A stretch of DNA of 64,000 nucleotides from Trueperaceae bacterium (GTDB taxonomy: Bacteria; Deinococcota; Deinococci; Deinococcales; Trueperaceae): NCBI GenBank assembly GCA_965215565.1, contig CBDCDZ010000004.1, positions 3,904,001 through 3,968,000 of the forward strand, in the 5' to 3' direction. Position 1 is the first letter of the stretch. Each line of letters begins with the position of its first letter. The position numbers and the translations under genes are program-made. Below, piece after piece: positions 3,454-62,868 of the stretch. Under the pieces are notes generated by a model, which was not told the origin of the DNA, searched no databases, and saw only the letters and a program-made list of their open reading frames with translations.

Positions 3454-3464
3454 GGAGCAAGAAG

Positions 3465-3573
3465 TAATACTAAAGTGAAGTTTAGATGTCGTACTTTTGA
3501 CATCTAAACCGCGCGTGAGCGCGTACCCTCAGACGCTCTCAATTTACGACATCCTTGAATCAGGTTAGTATAA
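3465..3573. mobile_element. MITE-like element family A, copy 2
   Basis: TACTAAAGTGA...TCAGGTTAGTA termini; inner IR GATGTCGTA/TACGACATC; nearly the same length as copy 1. Confidence 0.6.
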
Positions 3574-3608
3574 GAAGGCTGTAAAGTACACGGGTTTACC
3601 TTGCTTGT

Positions 3609-47390: not shown

Positions 47391-47472
47391 CTCACAATCT
47401 TTTCTAAACTCGTCAAGATGAACGGGAAGCCAACTCATGGTGACGCTTAGCGCCTCTTTGCTAGACTACCCT

Positions 47473-48753
47473 ATGAAAACCACAGCGTATCTTACCGTGT
47501 GCCTGCGCAGCCTTTGGCTCATCCTCTTTCTATGTTTGGGCGCAGCGACGGCGCAGCGTATCGCCTACGTCACGCCGGCGGGCGAGCTTGCAACCGTAGA
47601 ACCGGATGGTTCGCAGATGCGCGTCCTCGCAGACGCGGGGCGCTACCAGTTCCCGGCGTGGTCGCCTGATGGGGAGCGCGTCGCGGTCATCGGGGCAGAT
47701 GCGGAAGGCGCGGCGATTTTTAGCGTGGTGGACAGAGCGCTGAGCGAAAGCGTGCGTCACTACAGCAGCCAGCGCGAAGCGCCCATTTACCTCTATTGGT
47801 CGCCCGACTCCGAGACAATAAGCTTTCTCGCCAACCGTCCCGAGGTCGGGCTGGCGCTGCACCTCGCGCCCGTGAGCGGTGAGGATAACCCCGAAGAGAG
47901 CCGACTCCTCTCGGTGGGGAGCCCTTTTTATTGGCAGTGGAGCGCGGACGCGCGGCGGCTGCTCGTGCATACAGGGCTAACGGGCGAAGATGCGCGGCTC
48001 GGCTTTATGGCGGCGGCGGAGGACAACTTGACTGAGAACCTCTCGAGTCCTGGGCTCTTTCAAGCGCCAGGGATTTCGGCGAGCGGCGACTACATCGCTT
48101 ACGCGGAGATAGACGCTTCGGAAAGGGGGCGCGTCGTCCTGACGGATACGCCCGGCGACGAGCGCGACGCCGACACGGTGCGCGAAGTGCCGCACCAGGG
48201 GCTTGTGGCGCTCTCGTGGAGCCCGGCTGAGGACACGCTCGCGCTGATGAGCCCGCAAGTGGCCGCGCCGCACACGTATGGTCCTATTCGCCTCCTGGAC
48301 GCTCAGACGGGTGATTTGACGACGCTCATCGAAGAGACCGCCATCGCTTTTTTCTGGTCGCCGGACGGCAGTAAGATCGCCTACCTCTCGCCGCTCGCTG
48401 GTGATGATGGCGGCGGGCGCGTGACGGAACTGGGCACAGAGGTGGCCGGGATGAAAGTAAGCGCCGCCGCTCAGCCTAGAGCGCCGCTGCTGCTCAACCT
48501 TTCGGTGGTCGACGTGGCGAGCGGCGTCTCTGAGCGCCTCACTACGTTCGCGCCGAGCCCACTGTTCGTCGGTCAGTACTTGCCCTTTTTCGATCAGTAC
48601 GCGCTCAGCCACCGCGTGTGGTCGCCGGCGAGTGACGCGCTCGCCCTGCCGATGTTGGTTGGTGACGGTGTGACGCCGCAAATCGTCGTCGTGCCGCTCC
48701 GAGGGGAGCCGCAACCCGTCGCGCCGGGCGACATGCCGTCTTGGAGTCCTTGA
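47473..48753 (+). CDS. Secreted TolB-like (PD40) beta-propeller protein
   Basis: Signal peptide; repeated W-S-P-D-G/S motifs; TAGACT 5 nt before ATG 47473. Confidence 0.8.
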   Translation: MKTTAYLTVCLRSLWLILFLCLGAATAQRIAYVTPAGELATVEPDGSQMRVLADAGRYQFPAWSPDGERVAVIGADAEGAAIFSVVDRALSESVRHYSSQREAPIYLYWSPDSETISFLANRPEVGLALHLAPVSGEDNPEESRLLSVGSPFYWQWSADARRLLVHTGLTGEDARLGFMAAAEDNLTENLSSPGLFQAPGISASGDYIAYAEIDASERGRVVLTDTPGDERDADTVREVPHQGLVALSWSPAEDTLALMSPQVAAPHTYGPIRLLDAQTGDLTTLIEETAIAFFWSPDGSKIAYLSPLAGDDGGGRVTELGTEVAGMKVSAAAQPRAPLLLNLSVVDVASGVSERLTTFAPSPLFVGQYLPFFDQYALSHRVWSPASDALALPMLVGDGVTPQIVVVPLRGEPQPVAPGDMPSWSP

Positions 48754-49022
48754 CGTTAATAGCTCGAGTCCTTCCGTTCATCAACGCCGAGATAACCAGG
48801 TGGTGAGCTTCGGAGGAACGCCGCGATTTTGTTCAGCCGCACGGTTATACGAGGTTGCACGGCTTAGTTTGCAAAACTAAGCCGTGTATGTCACGGATGG
48901 GACGTAAACTCGGCGCGACCCGCTAGCTAAAGCTGAGCCGCTGAAAAGCTCTATGCACGAAGTAAAGTCGCAAGCTCCCGCTGGGCGAAGCAACGCCCTC
49001 AGTTGGGGTAAGTAAACTGTGC

Positions 49023-49133
49023 TAGCAGTTCCAAAACATACTGAGACGGATAAGCGCAGATATCATTTCGGGATGTGCGTGCTAAACGATGTTCTCCGTA
49101 GTGGGAGTGTTTCAGACCAGATGATACCTGCTA
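49023..49133. mobile_element. MITE family C, copy 3 (111 bp)
   Basis: TAGCAGTTCC...GATACCTGCTA; highly similar to 49321-49431. Confidence 0.78.
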
Positions 49134-49231
49134 TGCAATTCCGTATTACGGCAACAAGAGGTCGAGCGACGTGAGCTTGCTACTCGAGCCTCTGTGTCTA
49201 GCAGGCGTTACTCAGCCTCGAGTCATGAGAT

Positions 49232-49267: not shown

Positions 49268-49320
49268 CATCTTGGTGTGCTTTCGTCTCAGTTTACTCTG
49301 AGGCGGCTATTTCAACTCTT

Positions 49321-49431
49321 TAGCAGTTCCAAAACATACTGAGACGGATAAGCGCAGATATCATCTCAGAATGTACGTGCTGCACGATGTTCTCAAAAGT
49401 GAGCGTGTTTCAGACCAGATGATACCTGCTA
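49321..49431. mobile_element. MITE family C, copy 4 (111 bp)
   Basis: TAGCAGTTCCAAAACATACTGAGACGG...CAGATGATACCTGCTA. Confidence 0.78.
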
Positions 49432-49450
49432 TCTTGTTCTACAGAGTGTT

Positions 49451-52400
49451 TTACCGAGAGAGAAATTCGGGCGCGAGCGCGACGGATTCGGCGTTGTCGA
49501 CTTCAGCCGAGGCGGAAGGTCGGATGTTCCAGTCGCCCTCGCCGTAGTCCAACAGACCTGCAAACGCCAACACGCGGTCCTTCGTCTTCTCTGCGACGAA
49601 GAGGGTGTCGCCGTCAAAGGTGATATCAACTGGGTTACCCAGAGTCGTGTTAGAGCCGCGCACCCGCGCTACTGGCTCGGCGTTGCCGTCTGCGCTGCTC
49701 GCATCGGTCAGCACGTAGAGTTCGCCGTCCGCGTCGAAGTCGGGCTGGTCCGGGGTCGTCGCCGCGCCCACGTCGGCGAGGATGAGGAGGTCTTTGTCCG
49801 CTACGTGGACGACGCCGTGCAGGTTCGCCGAAACTTTGTTACCCGCTCTCGTCGGGGTGATTTCTCGGTCAGGACCGCCCGCGCCGTAGTCCGCCGTGTA
49901 ATCTTCATAGACGAGCGCGGTGCCGTCGGTGCCCGCCACGAAGAGCGTGTCGCTGGTAGGGTCATAGTCCACGTCCCAGACGCTGCGCGTGTCGCTGCCG
50001 AGGTTTGTAGTGGTGAAGCGCGGGGAAGCGTTGCCGCCCACTTGGGTACTGAACACCTTGATGTCCTTCGCGCCGAAGTCCGCAACGATAACGACGCCCA
50101 GCGAATCCACCACCTCTAGACCCTTCGGCGCAACTAGACCCGTGTTGTCGCCCGTGATGGTGCGGTCTCTCGAGGCGTCGAAGGTCCCGCCGTCCCGCTG
50201 CGTCGCCAAGCGGTTGACGACAGCGATACCTCCCATGCTCGGCGTCGCGCCGTCGTCGAAGGTAAGGTAGGCGTCGCCGTTGCCACTGAAGGTGATGTTT
50301 TCGGGGTTGACGGTTGCGCCCGCTGTGTCAAAGGTACTTTCCATGGTGGAGAGGTCGGGCTCCACGCTGACCACGAAATCGTCCCCCGACTCGGGCGTAT
50401 TGCTGACGGCGAAAAGGGCGTCTATGACGGTCGCCGTGTCGTCGATATCCGTCACGTCGGGGTTGCCTAGTGCGAAGTCAGCAGCCTCGGCGACGAGCGA
50501 TTCAGGCTTGGACTCGTCCACGGCTAAGTCAGGGGCAACGTCGCCGCTCGCGCCGTCAAAGACGTTGTCGAACACGAGGAATTTGTCGCCCGCTTTCTCC
50601 GCGATGCGTGCCTCGTCGCCATTCAAGATGAGGTCGACGGGATTGCCGAGCAGCGTGCTGGGACCGCGAAGGATGCGGACGGGCTGCGTCTCGCCGCGCG
50701 CTTCGCTGGCGTTTTCAAACACGTAGAGGCTGCCGTCCGAATCAAAGCCGTCTTGGTCCGAAGTGGTCGCCGCGCCGACGTCCGTCACGACGAGGGCGTC
50801 TCTTTCGGCGTCGTAGGCGACGCCGTGAAGGTTGTCCGAGAGCTTGTCGCCGTTTTCGTCCACCGGGGTGAGGACCGTGACCGGCCCGTCGGGACCGTAA
50901 CCGCTCGCCACGTAGTCCTCGAAAACGCAGACCGTGCCGTTAACGCGGGCGACGAACAGGCGGTCATTCGCCTCGTCGTAAGCGAGGTCCCAGGGTGCGA
51001 CGGTAAAACCCGTGACGGCGAGCGGCGCGACGTTGCCGCCCGCCGCGGTGCCGAAGACCTTGACGTTGCTGTCGCCGAAGTCCGCCACGATGAGGAGACC
51101 CGCTTTCTGCGCGATATCGAAGCCTTTAGGCGCGACGAGTCCCGTGCTGTCCCCTTTGATCTCGCGGTCGAGTGTGGCGTCGTATGCGCCGCCGTCAGGA
51201 CGGTTGCGAATCTGCGAGAGCACGCGGAGGCTGCTGCCGCTCTCCCTGTCGCCTGCGTGATAGAGGTTGCCTAGCGCGTCTAAGTCGACGCCTTCGTTGT
51301 TGCCAGATTGAAAGGTTTTGAGCCTCTGGAAAAGTGCGTTGAACGTATCCAGCTCGCCGACGTTGTCAGGACCGTTGTTCGAGCCGTAGATGTTGAGGTC
51401 GAAGTCGGAGTTAAAGCCGCCCCCGGGCTCGGGGCTCGGATTGGGGTTTTGGTCCGGGACGAAGTCTTCGGGCGCTGCCACGAGTGACTCGGGCTTCGAC
51501 TCGGGCTTGACCAGGTCCGGCATGACCTCGCCGTCCGGCGCGTCAGGCGCGAAGAAGTCGTCGAATACGAGCAAGACGTCGTTCGCCTTTTCGGTGATGC
51601 GCACTTCGTCGTAGCCGTTAAAGATGACGTCCACCGGGTTGCCCAGGAGCGTCCAGCGCCCTCTCACGACGCGCTCCGGGTCAGCGTTGCCGTCCAAGGT
51701 GCTCGCGCCTAAAAAGGCGTAGATGCTGCCGTCGGTCTTGAAGCCGGGTTGCTCCGGGGTGGTGGCTGCGCCCACGTCGGTCACGACGAGCGTGTCCGAG
51801 CCTGAGTCGTACGCAATACCGTGCAGGTTGTCGGAGATTTTTTCACCGTCCCGGTAGGGGGTGATGGTGCGTGCGGGACCGTCCGCGCCGTAGTCCTCCA
51901 AGTAGCTGTCGAACACAGCAACCGTGCCGTCGGTGATCGCCGCGAAAAGGCGGTCCGTGTTCGGGTCATACGCGACGTCCCAGGCGGGCGTATCTAAAGT
52001 GGTGGTGGCGACGGGGGCGACGTTGCCATCTACCGAAGCGCCGAAAACCTTGAGAGAGCCGTCGCCGAAGTCAGCGACGATGAGGAGCCCGGCGTCCTCG
52101 GCTAGCTCGATCCCTTTGGGCGCGGCGAGCCCGGTGGCGTCGCCGCTGATTTCGCGGTCTATGTCGGGGTCAAAGGTGCTGGCGTTTTCGGGGCGGTCAT
52201 AGAGCTGCGAAACGACGCGGATACTAGGACCGTTCTCCCCGTCGCCTGCTTGGTAGACGTTGCCGGAGCTGTCCACCTCGACGCCTTCGTTGTTACCCGC
52301 GTTAAACGTGCTCTGAAGCGTAAAGGTTTCGTCGAAGGTGTCGATGAGCCCGGCGTTGCCCGGTCCATTGTTCGAAACGTAAACGGTTCTTTCATCAGGC

Positions 52401-52870
52401 GTAAACGCGCCCGAGCTTGGGTTGACAACGATGACGATGGTGACGCTCAAGGTCTCGCCGCTCTCCGTCTCGAGCCTCAGCGTGAGCGTGTAACCGCCCA
52501 TCGCGAGGTCTGAGAGGTCGACGGTGAAGGTGTCGCCGTCCAGCGTGACCGGGTTGTCCGCGCTGATGACCTCGTCGGCGCTGCCCTGCACGGTGTAGCG
52601 CACGCTCGTCACCGGGACGTTCACCGTGCCCGCGAGGGTCAGCGCGCCGTCACTCATCATGAGCGTGCAGTCGCCCGATACGTCCGCGCAGACGGCGGGC
52701 TCGCTCAGCGTCACGGGGGAGGCGCTCGGGTCGGTTGGATTTGTCGGCTCGGTGAGCGGGCTGCCGCACGCCGCGAGCAGTCCAGCGGTGAGTAGAAGTG
52801 TCAGAATGAGGCGTGTGTTTAGGATAAGACGTGGGCGAAGTGATTTCTCTCTGCGGATGGGTTGCTTCAT
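49451..52870 (-). CDS. Large acidic lipoprotein: Ig-like domain plus three tandem ~300-aa beta-propeller-like domains
   Basis: Lipobox LAAC; thrice-repeated GL.APKG, ADFG, WD..YD, NLHG, DVGAATT, LGNPVD, [TA]EK, ES[LV]. Confidence 0.85.
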   Translation of the reverse strand: MKQPIRREKSLRPRLILNTRLILTLLLTAGLLAACGSPLTEPTNPTDPSASPVTLSEPAVCADVSGDCTLMMSDGALTLAGTVNVPVTSVRYTVQGSADEVISADNPVTLDGDTFTVDLSDLAMGGYTLTLRLETESGETLSVTIVIVVNPSSGAFTPDERTVYVSNNGPGNAGLIDTFDETFTLQSTFNAGNNEGVEVDSSGNVYQAGDGENGPSIRVVSQLYDRPENASTFDPDIDREISGDATGLAAPKGIELAEDAGLLIVADFGDGSLKVFGASVDGNVAPVATTTLDTPAWDVAYDPNTDRLFAAITDGTVAVFDSYLEDYGADGPARTITPYRDGEKISDNLHGIAYDSGSDTLVVTDVGAATTPEQPGFKTDGSIYAFLGASTLDGNADPERVVRGRWTLLGNPVDVIFNGYDEVRITEKANDVLLVFDDFFAPDAPDGEVMPDLVKPESKPESLVAAPEDFVPDQNPNPSPEPGGGFNSDFDLNIYGSNNGPDNVGELDTFNALFQRLKTFQSGNNEGVDLDALGNLYHAGDRESGSSLRVLSQIRNRPDGGAYDATLDREIKGDSTGLVAPKGFDIAQKAGLLIVADFGDSNVKVFGTAAGGNVAPLAVTGFTVAPWDLAYDEANDRLFVARVNGTVCVFEDYVASGYGPDGPVTVLTPVDENGDKLSDNLHGVAYDAERDALVVTDVGAATTSDQDGFDSDGSLYVFENASEARGETQPVRILRGPSTLLGNPVDLILNGDEARIAEKAGDKFLVFDNVFDGASGDVAPDLAVDESKPESLVAEAADFALGNPDVTDIDDTATVIDALFAVSNTPESGDDFVVSVEPDLSTMESTFDTAGATVNPENITFSGNGDAYLTFDDGATPSMGGIAVVNRLATQRDGGTFDASRDRTITGDNTGLVAPKGLEVVDSLGVVIVADFGAKDIKVFSTQVGGNASPRFTTTNLGSDTRSVWDVDYDPTSDTLFVAGTDGTALVYEDYTADYGAGGPDREITPTRAGNKVSANLHGVVHVADKDLLILADVGAATTPDQPDFDADGELYVLTDASSADGNAEPVARVRGSNTTLGNPVDITFDGDTLFVAEKTKDRVLAFAGLLDYGEGDWNIRPSASAEVDNAESVALAPEFLSR

Positions 52871-53253
52871 CGTTTCCTCTCTAGGTTCGTCGCGTCTGAG
52901 CCGGCTGATACGTTAGCCGGTAAGACGGTTGGGGTCTCTACTAAAACGTTGCTGAGCGCGTCGTTTTTCTCAGCGCTTCTAAATACCGAGGCAGAACGCC
53001 GCAGCTCAACAAAACTTCATCGCGGTAGCGTGCGTGCTGAGCAGTGTTTTTTGCAGTGAGCGTGTTTCTGGTCAGAATCATTGTACGAAATTTCTTCCGG
53101 CTCCTCTGGAGCGCGAAGCGTTTGCTGAAAGCAAAATTTCATAATGGAAAACTTCTGTGAGCGAAGTAACTTGCTATCTAAGCCTCCCCTAAAACTAGAA
53201 CGCGCCGCCGAGCCGCTAGCTGACCCTCAGCGCTTTTCCTACTTGTCTTACGA

Positions 53254-53279
53254 AACGCGCAAAACTTCACTTTAGATGC
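53254..53279 (-). promoter_or_regulatory. Putative ECF-sigma promoter facing the large lipoprotein gene
   Basis: Minus strand GCATCT-N16-CGTT. Confidence 0.5.
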
Positions 53280-53347
53280 GTATTAGATGCATAGGTGTCG
53301 CCGAGTTTAGCGTCACGCAGCCCGAGTGAGCGAAGACGACTCCCCTC

Positions 53348-53373
53348 GCATCCAAACTTCGCTAACGTGCGTT
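53348..53373 (+). promoter_or_regulatory. Putative ECF-sigma promoter
   Basis: GCATCC-N16-CGTT. Confidence 0.55.
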
Positions 53374-53554
53374 TCTTAACAGATGAAGGGGGCGCAATGA
53401 GGTTTCCGGGTAATTTCTGTAGGAATTACCCCGAGCGTAGCGAGTTGAAAAAACTACGGATTCTGATGAGTACGGAATCAACTCCGACTCCAACGAAGTG
53501 CGCAGTGTCGGAGTCGATGTAGTAGTCAATCGGAATCCGTACAAGGGAGGCGCT

Positions 53555-53779
53555 ATGGTAAACTACAAACACGACGAAATCGGCGTAGAAGCGGAGCTGA
53601 GCGGAAACGTCCAGCACATTTCGAAAGGTGATCTGCTGGCGCTCATCCGTCGAGTTGAAGATGCTGTGTTTAGAGGCACGGCGCAGATGCGGGACTACGA
53701 GACGTTTGTGTGCTGCCAAGAGGAGCTGTTGAGGCGTGAAGTTCTCCACTTTGAACGTGAGCGGGCATCCAATCGCTAA
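53555..53779 (+). CDS. Small hypothetical protein (74 aa)
   Basis: RBS GGGAGG before ATG 53555; ends just upstream of the sigma gene. Confidence 0.55.
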   Translation: MVNYKHDEIGVEAELSGNVQHISKGDLLALIRRVEDAVFRGTAQMRDYETFVCCQEELLRREVLHFERERASNR

Positions 53780-53791
53780 GGTGCGCGCGTA
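53765..53791 (+). promoter_or_regulatory. Putative autoregulatory ECF promoter
   Basis: GCATCC-N17-CGTA, 14 nt before the sigma GTG. Confidence 0.6.
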
Positions 53792-53805
53792 AGGATGGAT
53801 AGAGC

Positions 53806-54393
53806 GTGAAGGGCTCACCACCGGACGCACCGGCAGACCCGCCGGTGGACCCGGAGGCAGCCCTCGTCATCCGTTTAGGACGTGGCGACGAAAGCGTTCT
53901 GGACGAGCTTTATGCTCGTTTAGGCGGGGGCGTTTTCGCCGCCGCGTTCGATCTACTCAAGAGCAGAGAGGAGGCTGAAGAGGTCGTGCAAGACACGTTC
54001 TTAACGCTGTGCCGCAAGGCGCACCTTTACAACACACCCGAACGCTCGCCTCGAGCCTTCATCTACACCGTAGCCCGCAATAAGGCGCTCTCGAGGCTGC
54101 GCAGGCGCAAAGCGCGCCCCGCGAAGGCGAGCGGCTGGGACGTGCATGAGCCCAGCGTCCCTTTCGCCGCGCCTCAGGGCGAGGACCAGGCGACGCGCCT
54201 CTACGCTGAAGACCTCTTGGCGAAGCTGAGTGACGAGGAGCGGCGGCTCTTGGAGGGCGCGTTTTACCAAGGTCATACGCACGCTGAACTCGCTGAGCTG
54301 ACCGGGCTGCCTCTAGGCACCTTGAAGAGCAAGCTGCGCCGCGCGCTGCTCAAACTCAAAGACTACGCTCGAGCCGAGACGAAGCCGTCATGA
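53806..54393 (+). CDS. ECF RNA polymerase sigma factor (SigK-like)
   Basis: AEEVVQDTF; IYTVARNKA..RLR; G.THAELAE..G.PLGT.KS.LRRAL. Confidence 0.93.
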   Translation: MKGSPPDAPADPPVDPEAALVIRLGRGDESVLDELYARLGGGVFAAAFDLLKSREEAEEVVQDTFLTLCRKAHLYNTPERSPRAFIYTVARNKALSRLRRRKARPAKASGWDVHEPSVPFAAPQGEDQATRLYAEDLLAKLSDEERRLLEGAFYQGHTHAELAELTGLPLGTLKSKLRRALLKLKDYARAETKPS

Positions 54394-55472
54394 ACGAGCT
54401 TCTGACCATATCCAGTGACCACCCCAAAGACCTCTTGCCGGACTACGTTTTGGGACTGCTCACCCCCGAAGAGGTCGAAGAGGTCGAGGTACACCTAGCG
54501 GGCTGCGCCGAATGCCAAAGGGAGGCGTGGGATCTAGCCGAGCCGCTCGTCCTGCTCACCGAAGCGCTGCCGAGCGAACCGCCGCCCGCGCGCATCCTGC
54601 AGGCGGTTAAAGCGGAACTGGCTGACGCCCCGCTGCTGCCTGAAGTCGCCGCTACAAACCCGGTAGGTGATAGAGACAGTACCCGCGAAACTGCCCCACC
54701 TATTCCACCACAGACGACGCGCCCGGCGGTGCGTTACGCCTGGCCGCTCACCGCCGCCTTTGCCCTCTTGCTCGCCCTCGGCGGGCTCTTGTGGGGCGCG
54801 GACACCTACGGAACGCTTCAGCAGGTCCGCGCTGACGAACGCCTGCTGAGCGGCTACCTCGCGCGCCCAGAGGTGCAAAAAGTCGTGCTCGAGAACGTCT
54901 TGACAAGTGACCGTACCGAGCCCATCGGCAGCGCCCTCCTGGTTTCGGAGAGACCCTCCGAGGTGCTCTTTGTGCTTAGTGAGAACGCACCTCAAGGACG
55001 CACCTACCAGGCCTGGGGACATACCAGCAGCGACTGGGACCCGGAGGGCGGCGAGCGCTTGACCTCTCTGCTCACCTCGCAAGATGAGGTCTTCGAGGTG
55101 GACGCGGCAGGGTTCGCCTCGCTCTACCTGAGCCTCGAGCCCGCTGGCGGCAGCCCCCAACCTACGGACCCGCTGAGCAAGGTGTCCCTCCTCAACCCGG
55201 TGGCGGACGCGCCCATCGAGATCACTACGCCCGAAGACGGGAGCACCGTGTCGGCGGACAGCCTTATCGTCAGCGGCGCAGTCGATTCTGCCATAAGGGA
55301 CCTCAGCTACACGCTTAATGGTGGCGAGCCCACCCGGACGAGCGCGGCGAATAACCGCTTCAGCTTCACGGTGAACGGGCTGCGCGAGGGGCGCAACACA
55401 GTCGAAGTCGCCGCTACGGATGGAGACGGCGGGCGCGTAGTCGCGTCCGTTCAGGTGACCTATACGCCCTGA
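54390..55472 (+). CDS. Anti-sigma factor (ZAS, TM, RskA-like domain, C-terminal Ig-like domain)
   Basis: HLAGCAEC; one TM; G.TYQAW; SLEP.GGSPQPT; IEITTPEDG...LREGRNTVEV. Confidence 0.88.
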   Translation: MNELLTISSDHPKDLLPDYVLGLLTPEEVEEVEVHLAGCAECQREAWDLAEPLVLLTEALPSEPPPARILQAVKAELADAPLLPEVAATNPVGDRDSTRETAPPIPPQTTRPAVRYAWPLTAAFALLLALGGLLWGADTYGTLQQVRADERLLSGYLARPEVQKVVLENVLTSDRTEPIGSALLVSERPSEVLFVLSENAPQGRTYQAWGHTSSDWDPEGGERLTSLLTSQDEVFEVDAAGFASLYLSLEPAGGSPQPTDPLSKVSLLNPVADAPIEITTPEDGSTVSADSLIVSGAVDSAIRDLSYTLNGGEPTRTSAANNRFSFTVNGLREGRNTVEVAATDGDGGRVVASVQVTYTP

Positions 55473-55589
55473 TTGGCCAAGTCTCTAACCCCTTGTGCCA
55501 ACCCCTTGTGTACTGCCCCGGTGTGGCGCGGTCTTCATGACGAGCTGTTAAACTGTCCCTGCGAGCAAAACGCTCTCAGGGAGGCTTCA

Positions 55590-56717
55590 ATGAAGAGACG
55601 AGTGCGTGCGTTCAGGATCAACATCCTCTTATTCACCCTGTTCGTACTCTTGGCGGGAGGGTTAGCAGGCGCTGGCTTCGCCTCTGCGCAGCGTGAGGGT
55701 GCAGGTCTCATCATCGTGAGCAAGCCGCCGCCGCCCGCCGTGCCGAGTGACCCCTCTCAAGGGCTGATCTTTCGCGCACCCCTCGACATGTCCGCCTCGA
55801 GCATCACCTTCGACACCTCCAATACAGCAGAAGGTGAAGCTGTAGACGCCCCTAAAAGCCTCGAGTACCTCCGCCTAGACAGCGCTGGCGACGCCTATAT
55901 CACCTTCGACGACGGACCCGCCGAAGCTGCGCCCGGCGGCGTTATGGTCATCGAAGACTTCATGAACCGGACGGGCTTTGGTTCGTCTAAAGACCGCCTC
56001 ATTACGGGCGAAGCGGCGGGCTTAGTCGCGCCAAAAGACCTCGTGGTGGCGGACGACTCAGGCGTCGTCATCGTCTCGGACTTCGCCGAGGCGAAGGTGG
56101 CGGTTTTCGACGTTCTAGCTGACGGCGATACTGCGCCGCGCTTCGTCACGCCCGAGCTTGGTCTAACGGAGGCGGGCGAGCCGCGCCGCCCTTGGGGTCT
56201 CGCCTTCGACGCGGCGGCAGACAGGCTTTTCGTGGGTGGCACCGACGGCACGGTGCTCGTCTTTGACGCCTACCTCGCCGACCGGGGCGAGGGCGGACCG
56301 GACCGCGTATTCACGCCCTTTCTGGGAGGCGAACAGGCGTCCGCTAATATTCATGACCTCGTCTACCTAGCAGACGAAGACGTACTTATCGCGACGGACG
56401 TGGGCGCGGCGACTACTGCCGACCAGCCGGGTTTCGACGCGGACGGCAAGGTGTTTGTGCTCGAGAATGCGAGCACCGCCGAGGGCGAAACCGAAGTCAA
56501 GGCGCAACTCGCCGGGTCAAGTACCATGCTGGGCAACCCCGTCGGCGCGGCGTCCCACGGCAGCGACCTCTTCATCACTGAGAAGACGAAGGACGCCGTG
56601 CTTCGTTTCAGCGGCGTTCTCGGCATGTCGGGTGCGGTTGACATTGCGCCGACGGGCGCGGTCACGGTGGCGAAACCCGAGGCGGTGGCGTTGGTGTCTG
56701 AAGCAAACGCCGACTGA
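55590..56717 (+). CDS. Secreted single-domain paralog of the propeller-like repeat
   Basis: RBS GGGAGG; signal peptide ending ASA; GLVAPKD, SDFA, NIHD, DVGAATT, LGNPVG, TEK, KPEAV. Confidence 0.82.
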   Translation: MKRRVRAFRINILLFTLFVLLAGGLAGAGFASAQREGAGLIIVSKPPPPAVPSDPSQGLIFRAPLDMSASSITFDTSNTAEGEAVDAPKSLEYLRLDSAGDAYITFDDGPAEAAPGGVMVIEDFMNRTGFGSSKDRLITGEAAGLVAPKDLVVADDSGVVIVSDFAEAKVAVFDVLADGDTAPRFVTPELGLTEAGEPRRPWGLAFDAAADRLFVGGTDGTVLVFDAYLADRGEGGPDRVFTPFLGGEQASANIHDLVYLADEDVLIATDVGAATTADQPGFDADGKVFVLENASTAEGETEVKAQLAGSSTMLGNPVGAASHGSDLFITEKTKDAVLRFSGVLGMSGAVDIAPTGAVTVAKPEAVALVSEANAD

Positions 56718-57005: not shown

Positions 57006-57116
57006 TAGGAACGAACATAACCACTGAGCTTGAATCACACAGGGATCATCACTAAAAGTACGCGTTACGCGGTGTTCCTGAAGGTGAAATTGGCTCAAAC
57101 CAGATGATACCTGCTA
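57006..57116. mobile_element. MITE family C, copy 5 (diverged, 111 bp)
   Basis: Ends CCAGATGATACCTGCTA; starts TAG...ACTGAG at the same spacing as copies 3 and 4. Confidence 0.55.
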
Positions 57117-61032: not shown

Positions 61033-62868
61033 GTGATACAGCCGAGAAAAGGTTTAGTGACGTTATTTCTACTTTTGTTAGGGTTTCTTGTAAGTTGTGG
61101 TGGATCAGGTACTCAGAGCGGATCAGTTGAGGCGCAGGCGCAACTCCGGTTGGAGCCGCAAGGAATTTCAGTAATGGACGCTGGCGCTGAAGGTGGGCAG
61201 GCTGTTGCGCTGTGGAGCGGCGCAGACGGCGCTTACTTCTCTCTTGACAAAGTGCCTGACAGTTGCTACGAGATAAGCGTGCGAGTTAGAGCTGACCTCT
61301 ATGAAGGTCCGCCCAAACTGCGTCTAAGTGTAAACGGTAGCCTTGCAAAGGACCCTAAACCCGTCGCGAACACGTCTTATAAGGACCTGTCGTTTGGTTA
61401 CGTCTGCTTAGAAGGTGGACGCATCGACGCTAACCTTCTTGATGACCGCTATGACGGCGCAGGTAAAGACCGCAACCTTTACGTTGACAGTTTGACCCTC
61501 ACCACACCTGCTGAAGAGAACATCTCCAAGCCTATAGCGCCGCCGCCCATCGAGCCCGGAACTCAACCTGACGCTAAAGGGCTTAGTTTGAGCATCGACG
61601 CGAACGCGAGAGGTAAGGCTGTGCGTCCGGTAGGACTTGCGCTCAACCCGATCAGAGACACCATGAGCTTAGAGGCGGCGGCGCAAGGGGTAGGTGCGAA
61701 GACCTTGCGCTGGGGCGCGATGGAAGCCTATTTCGACAAGGCGGCGGCTCCCAAATTCAAAGTCGGGGTTCAAGACCCCAATCACTGGATGGCGTGGGCT
61801 ACCGATAGCTCAGGTCACCGCACGCTCGACTTGCCTTTTGACGACTTTATGAAGCTCGCTCAGAACATGGGGGCAGAGCCCATCCTCGTCGTCCACATTC
61901 ACTCCGCTCTTTACGAAGGACCGCTTCCCCATGGCGACTGGAATACCATCGTCCAAGCCGCGGCGGACTGGGTTGAATACGCCAATATTACTCAAGGATA
62001 CGGCGTCAAACGTTGGGAAATCGGCAACGAAGTGGACCTAAACGGCTGGTCACCCGAACAGTACGCCAAGATGGTCAAAGACATTTCGGCGGCGATGAAA
62101 GCTGTTGACCCTACGATTAAAATCAGCGCGAACAGCATGGGCGGCAAGGCCTGGTGGGACAAGGTCATGCCGAGTATCGCTGGCGATATAGATTTTTTGG
62201 TGACGCACCAGTACTCCTGGTACACGGACTACGATCAGTGGAAGGACGATCCCTACAGCGTCGGCAACTTCATCGACGACGCACTCTACGCACGTGACAC
62301 GTACCTGCCGGGCGCGCCGCTCGTCCTGACGGAGGTTAGCGCCTTACAGCCTAACCAGGCTACGGAAACGAACTCCGTGTGGCGGGCGGTTCATAACGTT
62401 GAGGTGCAAGCCACGGCGCTTCACAAGGGCGTCGATCAAAATTACTTTTGGGTGAGCCGCTGGTTTGGCGACGAAAATGCCGACATGACCCGCGCGTTCA
62501 ACGCCGACTACCAACCGCTCGCTACCGGAACGTCATTAATGTTCCTCAACCGTTTTGTCGGCGGCAATATCCTGAGCTACGATCCATTTGTGAGTAGCAG
62601 CGTGCGCTCCTGGTCTTTTGTGGACGAAGCGGGTAACCTTACGGTCCTCATGCTCAACAAAGCAACCGAGCCCCAAGCGTTAAACGTCAACCTGCAAAAC
62701 TACCGAGGTACGCTTGAGAACAGCCGCGCTTCGCTCTCAGGTGACGCGCCGAACTCGACCGAGATTCGTATCACTGATGAAGCACCCGTAGGCGCGACGA
62801 ACGAAGGCTTCAACCTCACGCTCCCAGGACTTTCCGTCACGGCGGTTCGGTTTGGCACAACCCCTTAG
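61033..62868 (+). CDS. Lipoprotein glycoside hydrolase (clan GH-A-like) with N-terminal carbohydrate-binding module
   Basis: Lipobox LVSC; DRYD...DRNLYVDSL (CBM60-like); WEIGNE; LTE; C-terminal beta-sandwich LP..SVT. Confidence 0.75.
   Translation: MIQPRKGLVTLFLLLLGFLVSCGGSGTQSGSVEAQAQLRLEPQGISVMDAGAEGGQAVALWSGADGAYFSLDKVPDSCYEISVRVRADLYEGPPKLRLSVNGSLAKDPKPVANTSYKDLSFGYVCLEGGRIDANLLDDRYDGAGKDRNLYVDSLTLTTPAEENISKPIAPPPIEPGTQPDAKGLSLSIDANARGKAVRPVGLALNPIRDTMSLEAAAQGVGAKTLRWGAMEAYFDKAAAPKFKVGVQDPNHWMAWATDSSGHRTLDLPFDDFMKLAQNMGAEPILVVHIHSALYEGPLPHGDWNTIVQAAADWVEYANITQGYGVKRWEIGNEVDLNGWSPEQYAKMVKDISAAMKAVDPTIKISANSMGGKAWWDKVMPSIAGDIDFLVTHQYSWYTDYDQWKDDPYSVGNFIDDALYARDTYLPGAPLVLTEVSALQPNQATETNSVWRAVHNVEVQATALHKGVDQNYFWVSRWFGDENADMTRAFNADYQPLATGTSLMFLNRFVGGNILSYDPFVSSSVRSWSFVDEAGNLTVLMLNKATEPQALNVNLQNYRGTLENSRASLSGDAPNSTEIRITDEAPVGATNEGFNLTLPGLSVTAVRFGTTP

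What the first reader, a model, noticed from the sequence alone, without database searches (positions are those of the whole stretch)
49451..56717. Candidate undescribed surface sensing/effector system: SigK/RskA-type ECF pair flanked by four copies of one unassigned propeller-like domain
Seen: a divergent locus. On one side is a lipoprotein with three tandem ~300-aa repeats. On the other are a small ORF, an ECF sigma, a ZAS anti-sigma and a secreted one-domain paralog of the same repeat. Known: SigK/RskA-type pairs commonly control neighbouring exported-protein genes (e.g. mpt70/mpt83 in M. tuberculosis). Inference: a self-contained regulon in which the triple-domain lipoprotein is the output and the co-oriented single domain is a sensor or accessory for the anti-sigma. 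I cannot place the repeat in a characterised family.
Basis: partly seen in the sequence, partly recalled or inferred. Interest (0 to 1): 0.82.

Follow-up and report, generated by a model that had tools for sequence, protein, structure and literature searches.

The report
Propeller co-sensor for RskA anti-sigma
A bacterial sigma/anti-sigma gene pair sits between a surface lipoprotein it likely switches on and a secreted beta-propeller protein predicted to clamp onto an extra domain of the anti-sigma factor, which would give this little-understood class of stress switches a dedicated, testable sensing partner.

Summary
The four repeats (35-57% identical) are a six-bladed NHL/YWTD-like beta-propeller of a widespread unnamed family. 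The locus is an RskA-type (ECF18/19-like) system with an added third part.

Output: one promoter motif (GCATCYAA-N13/14-GCGTW, like the published ECF18 motif) occurs three times in the window (0.01 expected), facing the lipoprotein, the small ORF and the sigma. It precedes the lipoprotein in 8 of 8 genomes that have one.

Sensor: the anti-sigma carries an extra Ig domain and a short insertion, and the single propeller has its own clade-specific insertion. In 301 phylum genomes the Ig-extended anti-sigma and the full-length propeller occur in the same 13 (one unpublished), adjacent in 16 of 17 genes. The predicted complex scores 0.91 against a best control of 0.00, with both insertions in the interface. 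The anti-sigma Ig is homologous to the lipoprotein's own Ig, so the sensing pair resembles a split copy of its output.

Not shown: binding, direction of control, signal, biochemical activity. Outside the phylum, propeller genes rarely lie beside such a pair (2 of 43). New variant of a known kind.

The parts
49451..52870 (-). Output lipoprotein: lipobox (Cys35 at 52766-52768), Ig domain (52421-52717), three propellers R1 51446-52405, R2 50471-51406, R3 49454-50440 (A-A'-B types)
53186..53233 (-). Conserved hairpin at the 5' end of the predicted lipoprotein transcript (approximate limits)
   Evidence: 15 pairs, 2 with compensatory change, only 3 sequences of one genus
53254..53279 (-). Predicted ECF promoter facing the lipoprotein (GCATCT / CGTT)
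   Evidence: (rank 2 in genome)
53348..53373 (+). Predicted ECF promoter facing the small ORF and sigma operon (GCATCC / CGTT)
   Evidence: (rank 1 in genome)
53555..53779 (+). 74-aa small protein; second copy of a family-wide small protein, recruited to this locus
   Evidence: 77 of 102 same-family genomes; copy beside the sigma in 7 genomes
53765..53791 (+). Predicted ECF promoter directly before the sigma gene (GCATCC / CGTA)
   Evidence: (rank 29, weak)
53806..54393 (+). ECF sigma factor, ECF18/19-like, without the sigma-4 cysteine pair
54390..55472 (+). Anti-sigma: HHCC zinc motif 54420-54515, TM 54735-54800, RskA_C ectodomain with clade-specific insertion 55020-55043, added Ig domain 55209-55469 (predicted docking strand 55347-55373)
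55590..56717 (+). Secreted single six-bladed propeller (signal peptide to A33; clade-specific loop 55728-55754), predicted partner of the anti-sigma ectodomain

Best explanation
This is an RskA-type ECF sigma/anti-sigma pair followed by a secreted propeller that is predicted to bind the anti-sigma's outer domains and likely acts as its co-regulator, while the freed sigma likely transcribes the divergent lipoprotein and its own operon. Steps: (1) SHOWN: gene order, domains, three motif copies, co-occurrence. (2) INFERRED (about 0.85): this sigma or one of its two paralogs reads the motif and drives the lipoprotein, its own operon and a few unlinked exported proteins. (3) PREDICTED (about 0.75): the propeller docks on the anti-sigma by pairing an edge strand with the Ig domain and laying its 47-55 loop on the RskA insertion, leaving its conserved polar face free. 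(4) INFERRED by analogy with RseB (about 0.45): the bound propeller shields the anti-sigma from the first cut; a cue caught at its conserved face loosens it, proteolysis follows, and the sigma is released. (5) GUESS (about 0.35): the cue is envelope, oxidative or drying damage, and the lipoprotein's three propellers bind or process the same ligand.
For: Promoter: 3 matches in the window against 0.01 expected, all in the intergenic region. A matrix from 10 sites of three other genomes ranks two of them 1st and 2nd in 4.49 Mb. The motif precedes the multi-propeller lipoprotein in 8 of 8 genomes holding one. It resembles the published ECF18 motif TGCATCTT/CGTA (PMC7826278 supplement). Partner: full-length propeller in 13 of 301 genomes; Ig-extended anti-sigma in the same 13 (17 genes), while 51 other matches in 48 genomes stop before the Ig; 16 of 17 are adjacent. 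Loci fetched by the anti-sigma alone: 3 of 3 with Ig have the propeller next, 2 of 2 without Ig have none in the locus (one is only 1.4 kb). Single propellers form their own clade (SH-aLRT 98, quick tree) and follow the anti-sigma even in 5 genomes without the lipoprotein. Complex: score 0.91 in three runs, best of 3 controls 0.00, runs agree in at least 96% of contacts, partner pLDDT at least 91; the mark was reached by 116 of 157 solved complexes and 2 of 215 mismatched pairs (counts hold roughly). The interface contains both clade-specific insertions: propeller 48-52 is a gap in 88-97% of 225 other domains, and the anti-sigma insertion is absent from all 35 short RskA proteins aligned. No RskA ectodomain or close propeller relative was found among solved structures by sequence, so a pass from memory is less likely.
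Against: No expression or binding data. The closest control, a lipoprotein repeat as partner, could not be run; close cousins can pass this test. The pair resembles halves of an Ig-propeller protein, and such split pairs tend to pass. The 13 genomes are kin and probably inherited one cassette; 14 of the 17 anti-sigmas were in the search model. The motif was first seen by eye in this window, so the matrix test is not fully blind, and below 21 bits hits approach chance (46 against 21-35 at 15 bits). Three paralogous sigmas share the motif, so the responsible sigma is unknown. In the third paralog the propeller lies 3.7 kb away. Ferritin_2 genes carry the motif only within the genus (2 of 14 genes, both in the same-genus genome). 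Only 34 of 69 anti-sigmas keep HxxxCxxC.
Confidence: 0.62

Rival explanations
1. The propeller binds the anti-sigma but acts as an activator: when loaded with ligand it promotes cleavage or a conformational switch, rather than shielding.
For: Same co-occurrence and complex evidence. RskA is reported to act as both activator and inhibitor (PMC7509140 abstract). The conserved polar residues are kept in the single form.
Against: A partner encoded just downstream in an autoregulated operon fits a negative regulator such as RseB (PMC8103513 passages); nothing tested here separates the two directions.
Confidence: 0.22
2. The single propeller is simply another exported output of the sigma. The predicted docking is a relic of an ancestral Ig-propeller contact with no regulatory role.
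For: Ig-propeller fusions exist, including this lipoprotein. Family members fuse to fasciclin, CHRD and DUF7282, and fasciclin is a published ECF18 neighbour. One paralog is separated from its anti-sigma.
Against: Both partners carry insertions that meet in the predicted interface and are missing from their relatives. Anti-sigma T327, in the best-scored contacts, is invariant in 68 anti-sigmas but is P in the closest lipoprotein Igs. Other outputs swap (DUF4394, CHRD, multi-propeller) while the single propeller stays.
Confidence: 0.12
3. The propellers are metal-dependent hydrolases. The single copy is an enzyme-derived sensor that traps substrate, and the lipoprotein is the bulk catalyst (BlaR1-like logic, recalled).
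For: K149, D164, W202, N253, H255, D270, D285, E331 and E364 are conserved in both groups and none is in the predicted interface. Six-bladed enzymes (PAL, lactonases, PON1) appear among fold matches at Z 20-22.
Against: The best fold matches are non-enzymatic YWTD propellers (Z 26-29). No enzyme family passes Pfam or NCBIfam. The geometry of the residues was not inspected.
Confidence: 0.2
4. Feedback by mimicry: once made, the lipoprotein's own Ig or propellers compete for the sensing pair and tune the response.
For: The lipoprotein Ig is 41% identical to the anti-sigma Ig in one relative. In this genome the Ig profile hits only the three anti-sigmas and this lipoprotein.
Against: The docking strand and the 47-55 loop are not conserved in the lipoprotein. 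The window's lipoprotein Ig is only 20% identical.
Confidence: 0.08

Closest known systems
SigK/RskA and ECF18/ECF19 systems (PMC7826278 passages and supplement part 8; PMC7509140 abstract and introduction)
   Same: ECF sigma with a +1 single-pass RskA_C anti-sigma, optional zinc finger, GCATC/CGTA-type promoter, exported-protein neighbours (fasciclin, DUF4394, DUF4331 in related loci).
   Different: Extra Ig domain and insertion on the anti-sigma, a dedicated propeller gene after it, no sigma-4 cysteine pair. No such partner appears in the passages read.
RpoE-RseA-RseB (PMC8103513 passages)
   Same: Operon-encoded exported protein that binds the anti-sigma's outer domain (predicted here) and would gate proteolysis.
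   Different: Unrelated proteins: a propeller rather than RseB, RskA_C-Ig rather than RseA. The partner here is a paralog of a regulon output.
Thermus sigmaE/anti-sigmaE (NCBIfam PRK13919/PRK13920; organism link and promoter work recalled, paper not held)
   Same: Among the best-scoring NCBIfam models for sigma and anti-sigma.
   Different: Both scores are below cut-off. Short RskA proteins of the phylum lack the Ig and the insertion.
NHL / YWTD six-bladed propellers (PknD sensor domain, nidogen, LDLR family)
   Same: Six four-stranded blades; Z 28.9, rmsd 2.5, 259 aligned to 5b4x; Z 22.0 to PknD 1rwi.
   Different: 13-23% identity, long conserved loops, no family-level model; own sequence family of 155 clusters at E<=1e-30.

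Membership tests
RskA-type ECF system (ECF18/ECF19) | ECF sigma with sigma2 and sigma4 only | tested here: met
RskA-type ECF system (ECF18/ECF19) | Anti-sigma at +1 with RskA_C domain and one TM helix | tested here: met
   RskA_C 39.7 bits against cut-off 29.4; one hydrophobic segment near 116-137
RskA-type ECF system (ECF18/ECF19) | Promoter of type TGCATCTT / CGTA (ECF18) or ATC / CG (ECF19) | tested here: met
   GCATCYAA / CGTW; by sequence only
ECF18 / SigK proper | Cysteine pair in sigma4; SigK model cut-off | tested here: not met
   only Cys69; SigK model 88.2 bits against 226. The pair is not defining for ECF19
ECF19 | Assignment by the ECF group profile set | not testable with these tools
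   no such library is offered; ECF19 includes Deinococcus-Thermus members
ZAS anti-sigma | H-x23-26-HxxxCxxC motif (pattern recalled) | tested here: met
   H11, H35, C39, C42; zf-HC2 over cut-off. HxxxCxxC kept in 34 of 69 homologs
NHL-repeat propellers | Six-bladed propeller fold | tested here: met
   pLDDT 92.6, six four-strand groups
NHL-repeat propellers | Pfam NHL repeats over cut-off | tested here: inconclusive
   lipoprotein 36.9 bits in total but no single stretch passes; single domain 15.8 against 20
RseB/MucB co-anti-sigma | Sequence family membership | tested here: not met
   no RseB-type Pfam or NCBIfam match; it may still work like RseB
RseB/MucB co-anti-sigma | Binds the anti-sigma's extracytoplasmic domain and gates its cleavage | tested here: inconclusive
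   binding predicted only; gating not testable
Metal-dependent six-bladed hydrolases (SMP-30, PON, PAL) | Metal site and catalytic activity | not testable with these tools
   conserved polar residues present; no family match

The most novel reading that the evidence does not exclude
The receptor was built from its own output. An RskA anti-sigma captured the Ig domain of an Ig-propeller lipoprotein, and a freed copy of the propeller re-docks on it through new matching insertions. The cell then senses with the same conserved pocket that the induced lipoprotein uses to bind or destroy the ligand. That ligand would be a long-sought RskA-class signal, and the propeller family a new cross-phylum member of RskA-type regulons.
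Probability: 0.3. Interest if true: 0.78.

Novelty: new variant of a known kind. Interest (0 to 1): 0.63.

Why it matters
RskA-type anti-sigmas are widespread (191 of 301 genomes in this phylum), yet the first extracytoplasmic step of their activation is reported as unknown (PMC7509140 introduction). A lineage that added a discrete soluble partner with a conserved pocket offers a purifiable handle for ligand fishing and structure. It also places an unnamed multi-phylum propeller family in these regulons, and may show a sensor evolving from a duplicate of its effector.

Tried and rejected
No PDB sequence match for the single domain. The family profile hits only short NHL stretches. No NCBIfam family is shared by the 36 aligned members. 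Atlas hits were unnamed or NHL-labelled clusters for the propeller and uninformative for the small ORF. No fused anti-sigma-propeller protein was found among longer proteins (weak evidence). No RNA holder was listed. No sigma-70 promoter, and no terminator-like site between anti-sigma and propeller. No earlier findings. Strict gene-neighbourhood linkage outside the phylum was rejected (2 of 43). A family-wide Ferritin_2 link was rejected. Five weak partial propeller matches (E 1e-11 to 1e-17) were left out of the count of 13. The careful tree did not finish. RskA_C was not assessed by the fold search, which was filled by the Ig domain. Nine literature searches listed no description of this partner or family; most subscription papers are not searched, and only one part of the ECF supplement was read (the file is cut).
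Full report
OBSERVATION. The five ORFs are present as described. The lipoprotein has a lipobox, an Ig domain and three repeats. These repeats and the single domain at 55590 are 35-57% identical. The sigma matches Pfam sigma70 r2/r4. The anti-sigma matches zf-HC2 and RskA_C over cut-off and ends in an Ig domain. The lineage is Deinococcota, probably Trueperaceae; this is my inference from homologs and recall, and no tool named it.

THE REPEAT. AlphaFold2 on 103 sequences gives a confident six-bladed propeller (pLDDT 92.6). The best fold matches are YWTD and NHL propellers at 13-16% identity (Z 28.9, rmsd 2.5, 259 aligned). Pfam gives only diffuse NHL scores, and NCBIfam and PDB sequence searches give no family. 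The family is broad: 909 clusters at E<=0.001 and 155 at 1e-30. Of 147 top hits, 93 have two domains, 52 one and 2 three. Named loci come from Cyanobacteriota, Pseudomonadota, Myxococcota, Chloroflexota, Rhodothermota and Bacteroidota. Among 32 hand-picked long members, 5 are fused to fasciclin, 2 to CHRD and 1 to DUF7282. A quick tree (68 domains; careful search unfinished) shows an A-B two-domain form shared across phyla, an A-A'-B arrangement here, and a separate clade of single propellers (SH-aLRT 98).

OUTPUT SIDE. GCATCYAA-N13/14-GCGTW occurs three times in the 64 kb window, all between the lipoprotein and the sigma, against 0.01 expected. One copy faces the lipoprotein and two face the sigma operon. 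It resembles the ECF18 motif TGCATCTT/CGTA (PMC7826278, supplement part 8). A matrix from 10 sites of three other genomes ranks two window sites first and second in 4.49 Mb. The next four precede two Ferritin_2 genes, a paralogous sigma and a PKD/beta-helix lipoprotein. The second paralogous sigma ranks 10th and the third window site 29th. At 21 bits or more there are 7 sites against 0, 0 and 4 in shuffles; lower scores are near chance. I had seen the motif by eye first, so this test is not blind. The motif precedes the multi-propeller lipoprotein in 8 of 8 genomes that have it. Ferritin_2 includes DRB0118, whose loss sensitises D. radiodurans to drying (PMC11616004 and PMC6300522 passages), but the motif precedes Ferritin_2 genes only within this genus (2 of 14 tested), so this is a weak hint at the signal.

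OUTSIDE THE PHYLUM. The 43 loci come from one peptide pattern and many are truncated. Of these, 2 have an ECF+RskA_C pair next to the propeller, 1 has an adjacent ECF, and 2 have an ECF 3-4 kb away. The strict motif lies upstream of 9 of 38 propeller genes against 5 of 411 other ORFs. Eight of the 9 are related gammaproteobacteria; counted once, the figures are 2 of 31 (p 0.08) strict and 6 of 31 (p 0.011) relaxed. All 5 of those genomes tested hold an unlinked RskA_C gene, with the motif before the sigma in 4 of 5 and before the downstream gene in 4 of 5 (DUF4331 in the three scanned). There the propeller looks like a distant target. Five cyanobacterial loci show no motif.

SENSOR SIDE. In 301 phylum genomes, RskA_C is in 191, the full-length propeller in 13 (five weak partial matches dropped), and the Ig-extended anti-sigma in the same 13, as 17 genes. 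The 51 other matches in 48 genomes end before the Ig. The single propeller directly follows 16 of the 17; the exception is this genome's third set, 3.7 kb away. These counts include unpublished G255; without it they are 12 of 300 and 15 of 16. The genomes are kin, and 14 of the 17 genes were in the model. An independent fetch by the anti-sigma gave 3 of 3 Ig-extended loci with the propeller next, and 2 of 2 short ones without (one only 1.4 kb long). The other neighbours vary (multi-propeller lipoprotein, DUF4394, CHRD, Big_9).

PREDICTED COMPLEX. Anti-sigma 138-360 with propeller 34-372 scored 0.91 in three runs, best of 3 controls 0.00. The runs agree in at least 96% of contacts, with partner pLDDT at least 91. 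The mark was reached by 116 of 157 solved complexes and 2 of 215 mismatched pairs, counts that hold only roughly here. This supports binding and does not show it. Ig strand 320-328 meets propeller 356-361 and 66-70, and the contact lists include propeller 47-55 and anti-sigma 212-219. Both of these last segments are clade-specific. Positions 48-52 are gaps in 88-97% of 225 other domains, and the anti-sigma insertion is missing from all 35 short RskA proteins aligned. The family's conserved polar residues (K149, D164, W202, N253, H255, D270, D285, E331, E364) are kept in the single clade and are not in the interface list. That they form a pocket on one face is inferred from their blade positions. 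The cousin control (a lipoprotein repeat) could not be run.

SPLIT-COPY ORIGIN. The anti-sigma Ig is homologous to the Ig at the start of the lipoprotein: 41% over 85 residues in a relative, and probability 94% for the window's copy. In this genome the Ig profile hits only the three anti-sigmas and this lipoprotein. The sensing pair thus mirrors the output's Ig-propeller unit. This makes real contact plausible, but also means the prediction could reflect an ancestral domain contact. The docking strand has diverged in the lipoproteins. No fused form was found (weak).

SMALL ORF. It is a second copy of a protein found in 77 of 102 same-family genomes and none of 198 in other families. It lies before the sigma in 7 genomes and is absent there in others, so it is not essential to the cassette.

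VERDICT. It works like SigK/RskA with an RseB-like third part built from an unrelated fold. It is not SigK or ECF18 proper (no cysteine pair, below cut-off), and ECF19 membership could not be tested. Nine searches listed no description; subscription papers and unread parts of the ECF supplement may bear on this. New variant of a known kind, interest 0.63.

Noticed in passing
window 49020-49145 and 49320-49435, also near 57100: Intergenic repeat of about 110 bp with 295 blastn hits in the genome (150 of 80 bp or more); REP/MITE-like.
   Followed up: partly
window 3460-3575 and at least 5 other genome sites: A second repeated element of about 110 bp contains a near-match to the ECF promoter motif (18.8 bits; 22 hits). 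It could be a mobile promoter or a false positive.
   Followed up: partly
window 53186-53233 (-): Conserved hairpin at the start of the lipoprotein leader, with two compensatory pairs in three genomes.
   Followed up: partly
L183 (G000:C4:1269087-1276167) and L184 (G000:C4:4073395-4079858): Two paralogous sigma/anti-sigma-Ig/propeller sets. One is followed by CHRD and Big_9 proteins; in the other, glyoxalase-family and TPMT genes lie between anti-sigma and propeller.
   Followed up: yes
L185:3326-3514: Stand-alone paralog of the 74-aa small protein; an unnamed family apparently confined to this bacterial family.
   Followed up: partly
L221:1329-2894: Sigma and anti-sigma read as one 521-aa ORF (also P0285); a fusion or an assembly frameshift.
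   Followed up: no
L048:5123-9432: Chloroflexota locus with a triple-fasciclin-propeller gene divergent from an ECF/RskA_C pair, a parallel arrangement.
   Followed up: partly
window 47437-48753 and 61033-62868: An unrelated TolB-like PD40 propeller, and a predicted lipoprotein with CBM60 and a weak GH79-like match.
   Followed up: no
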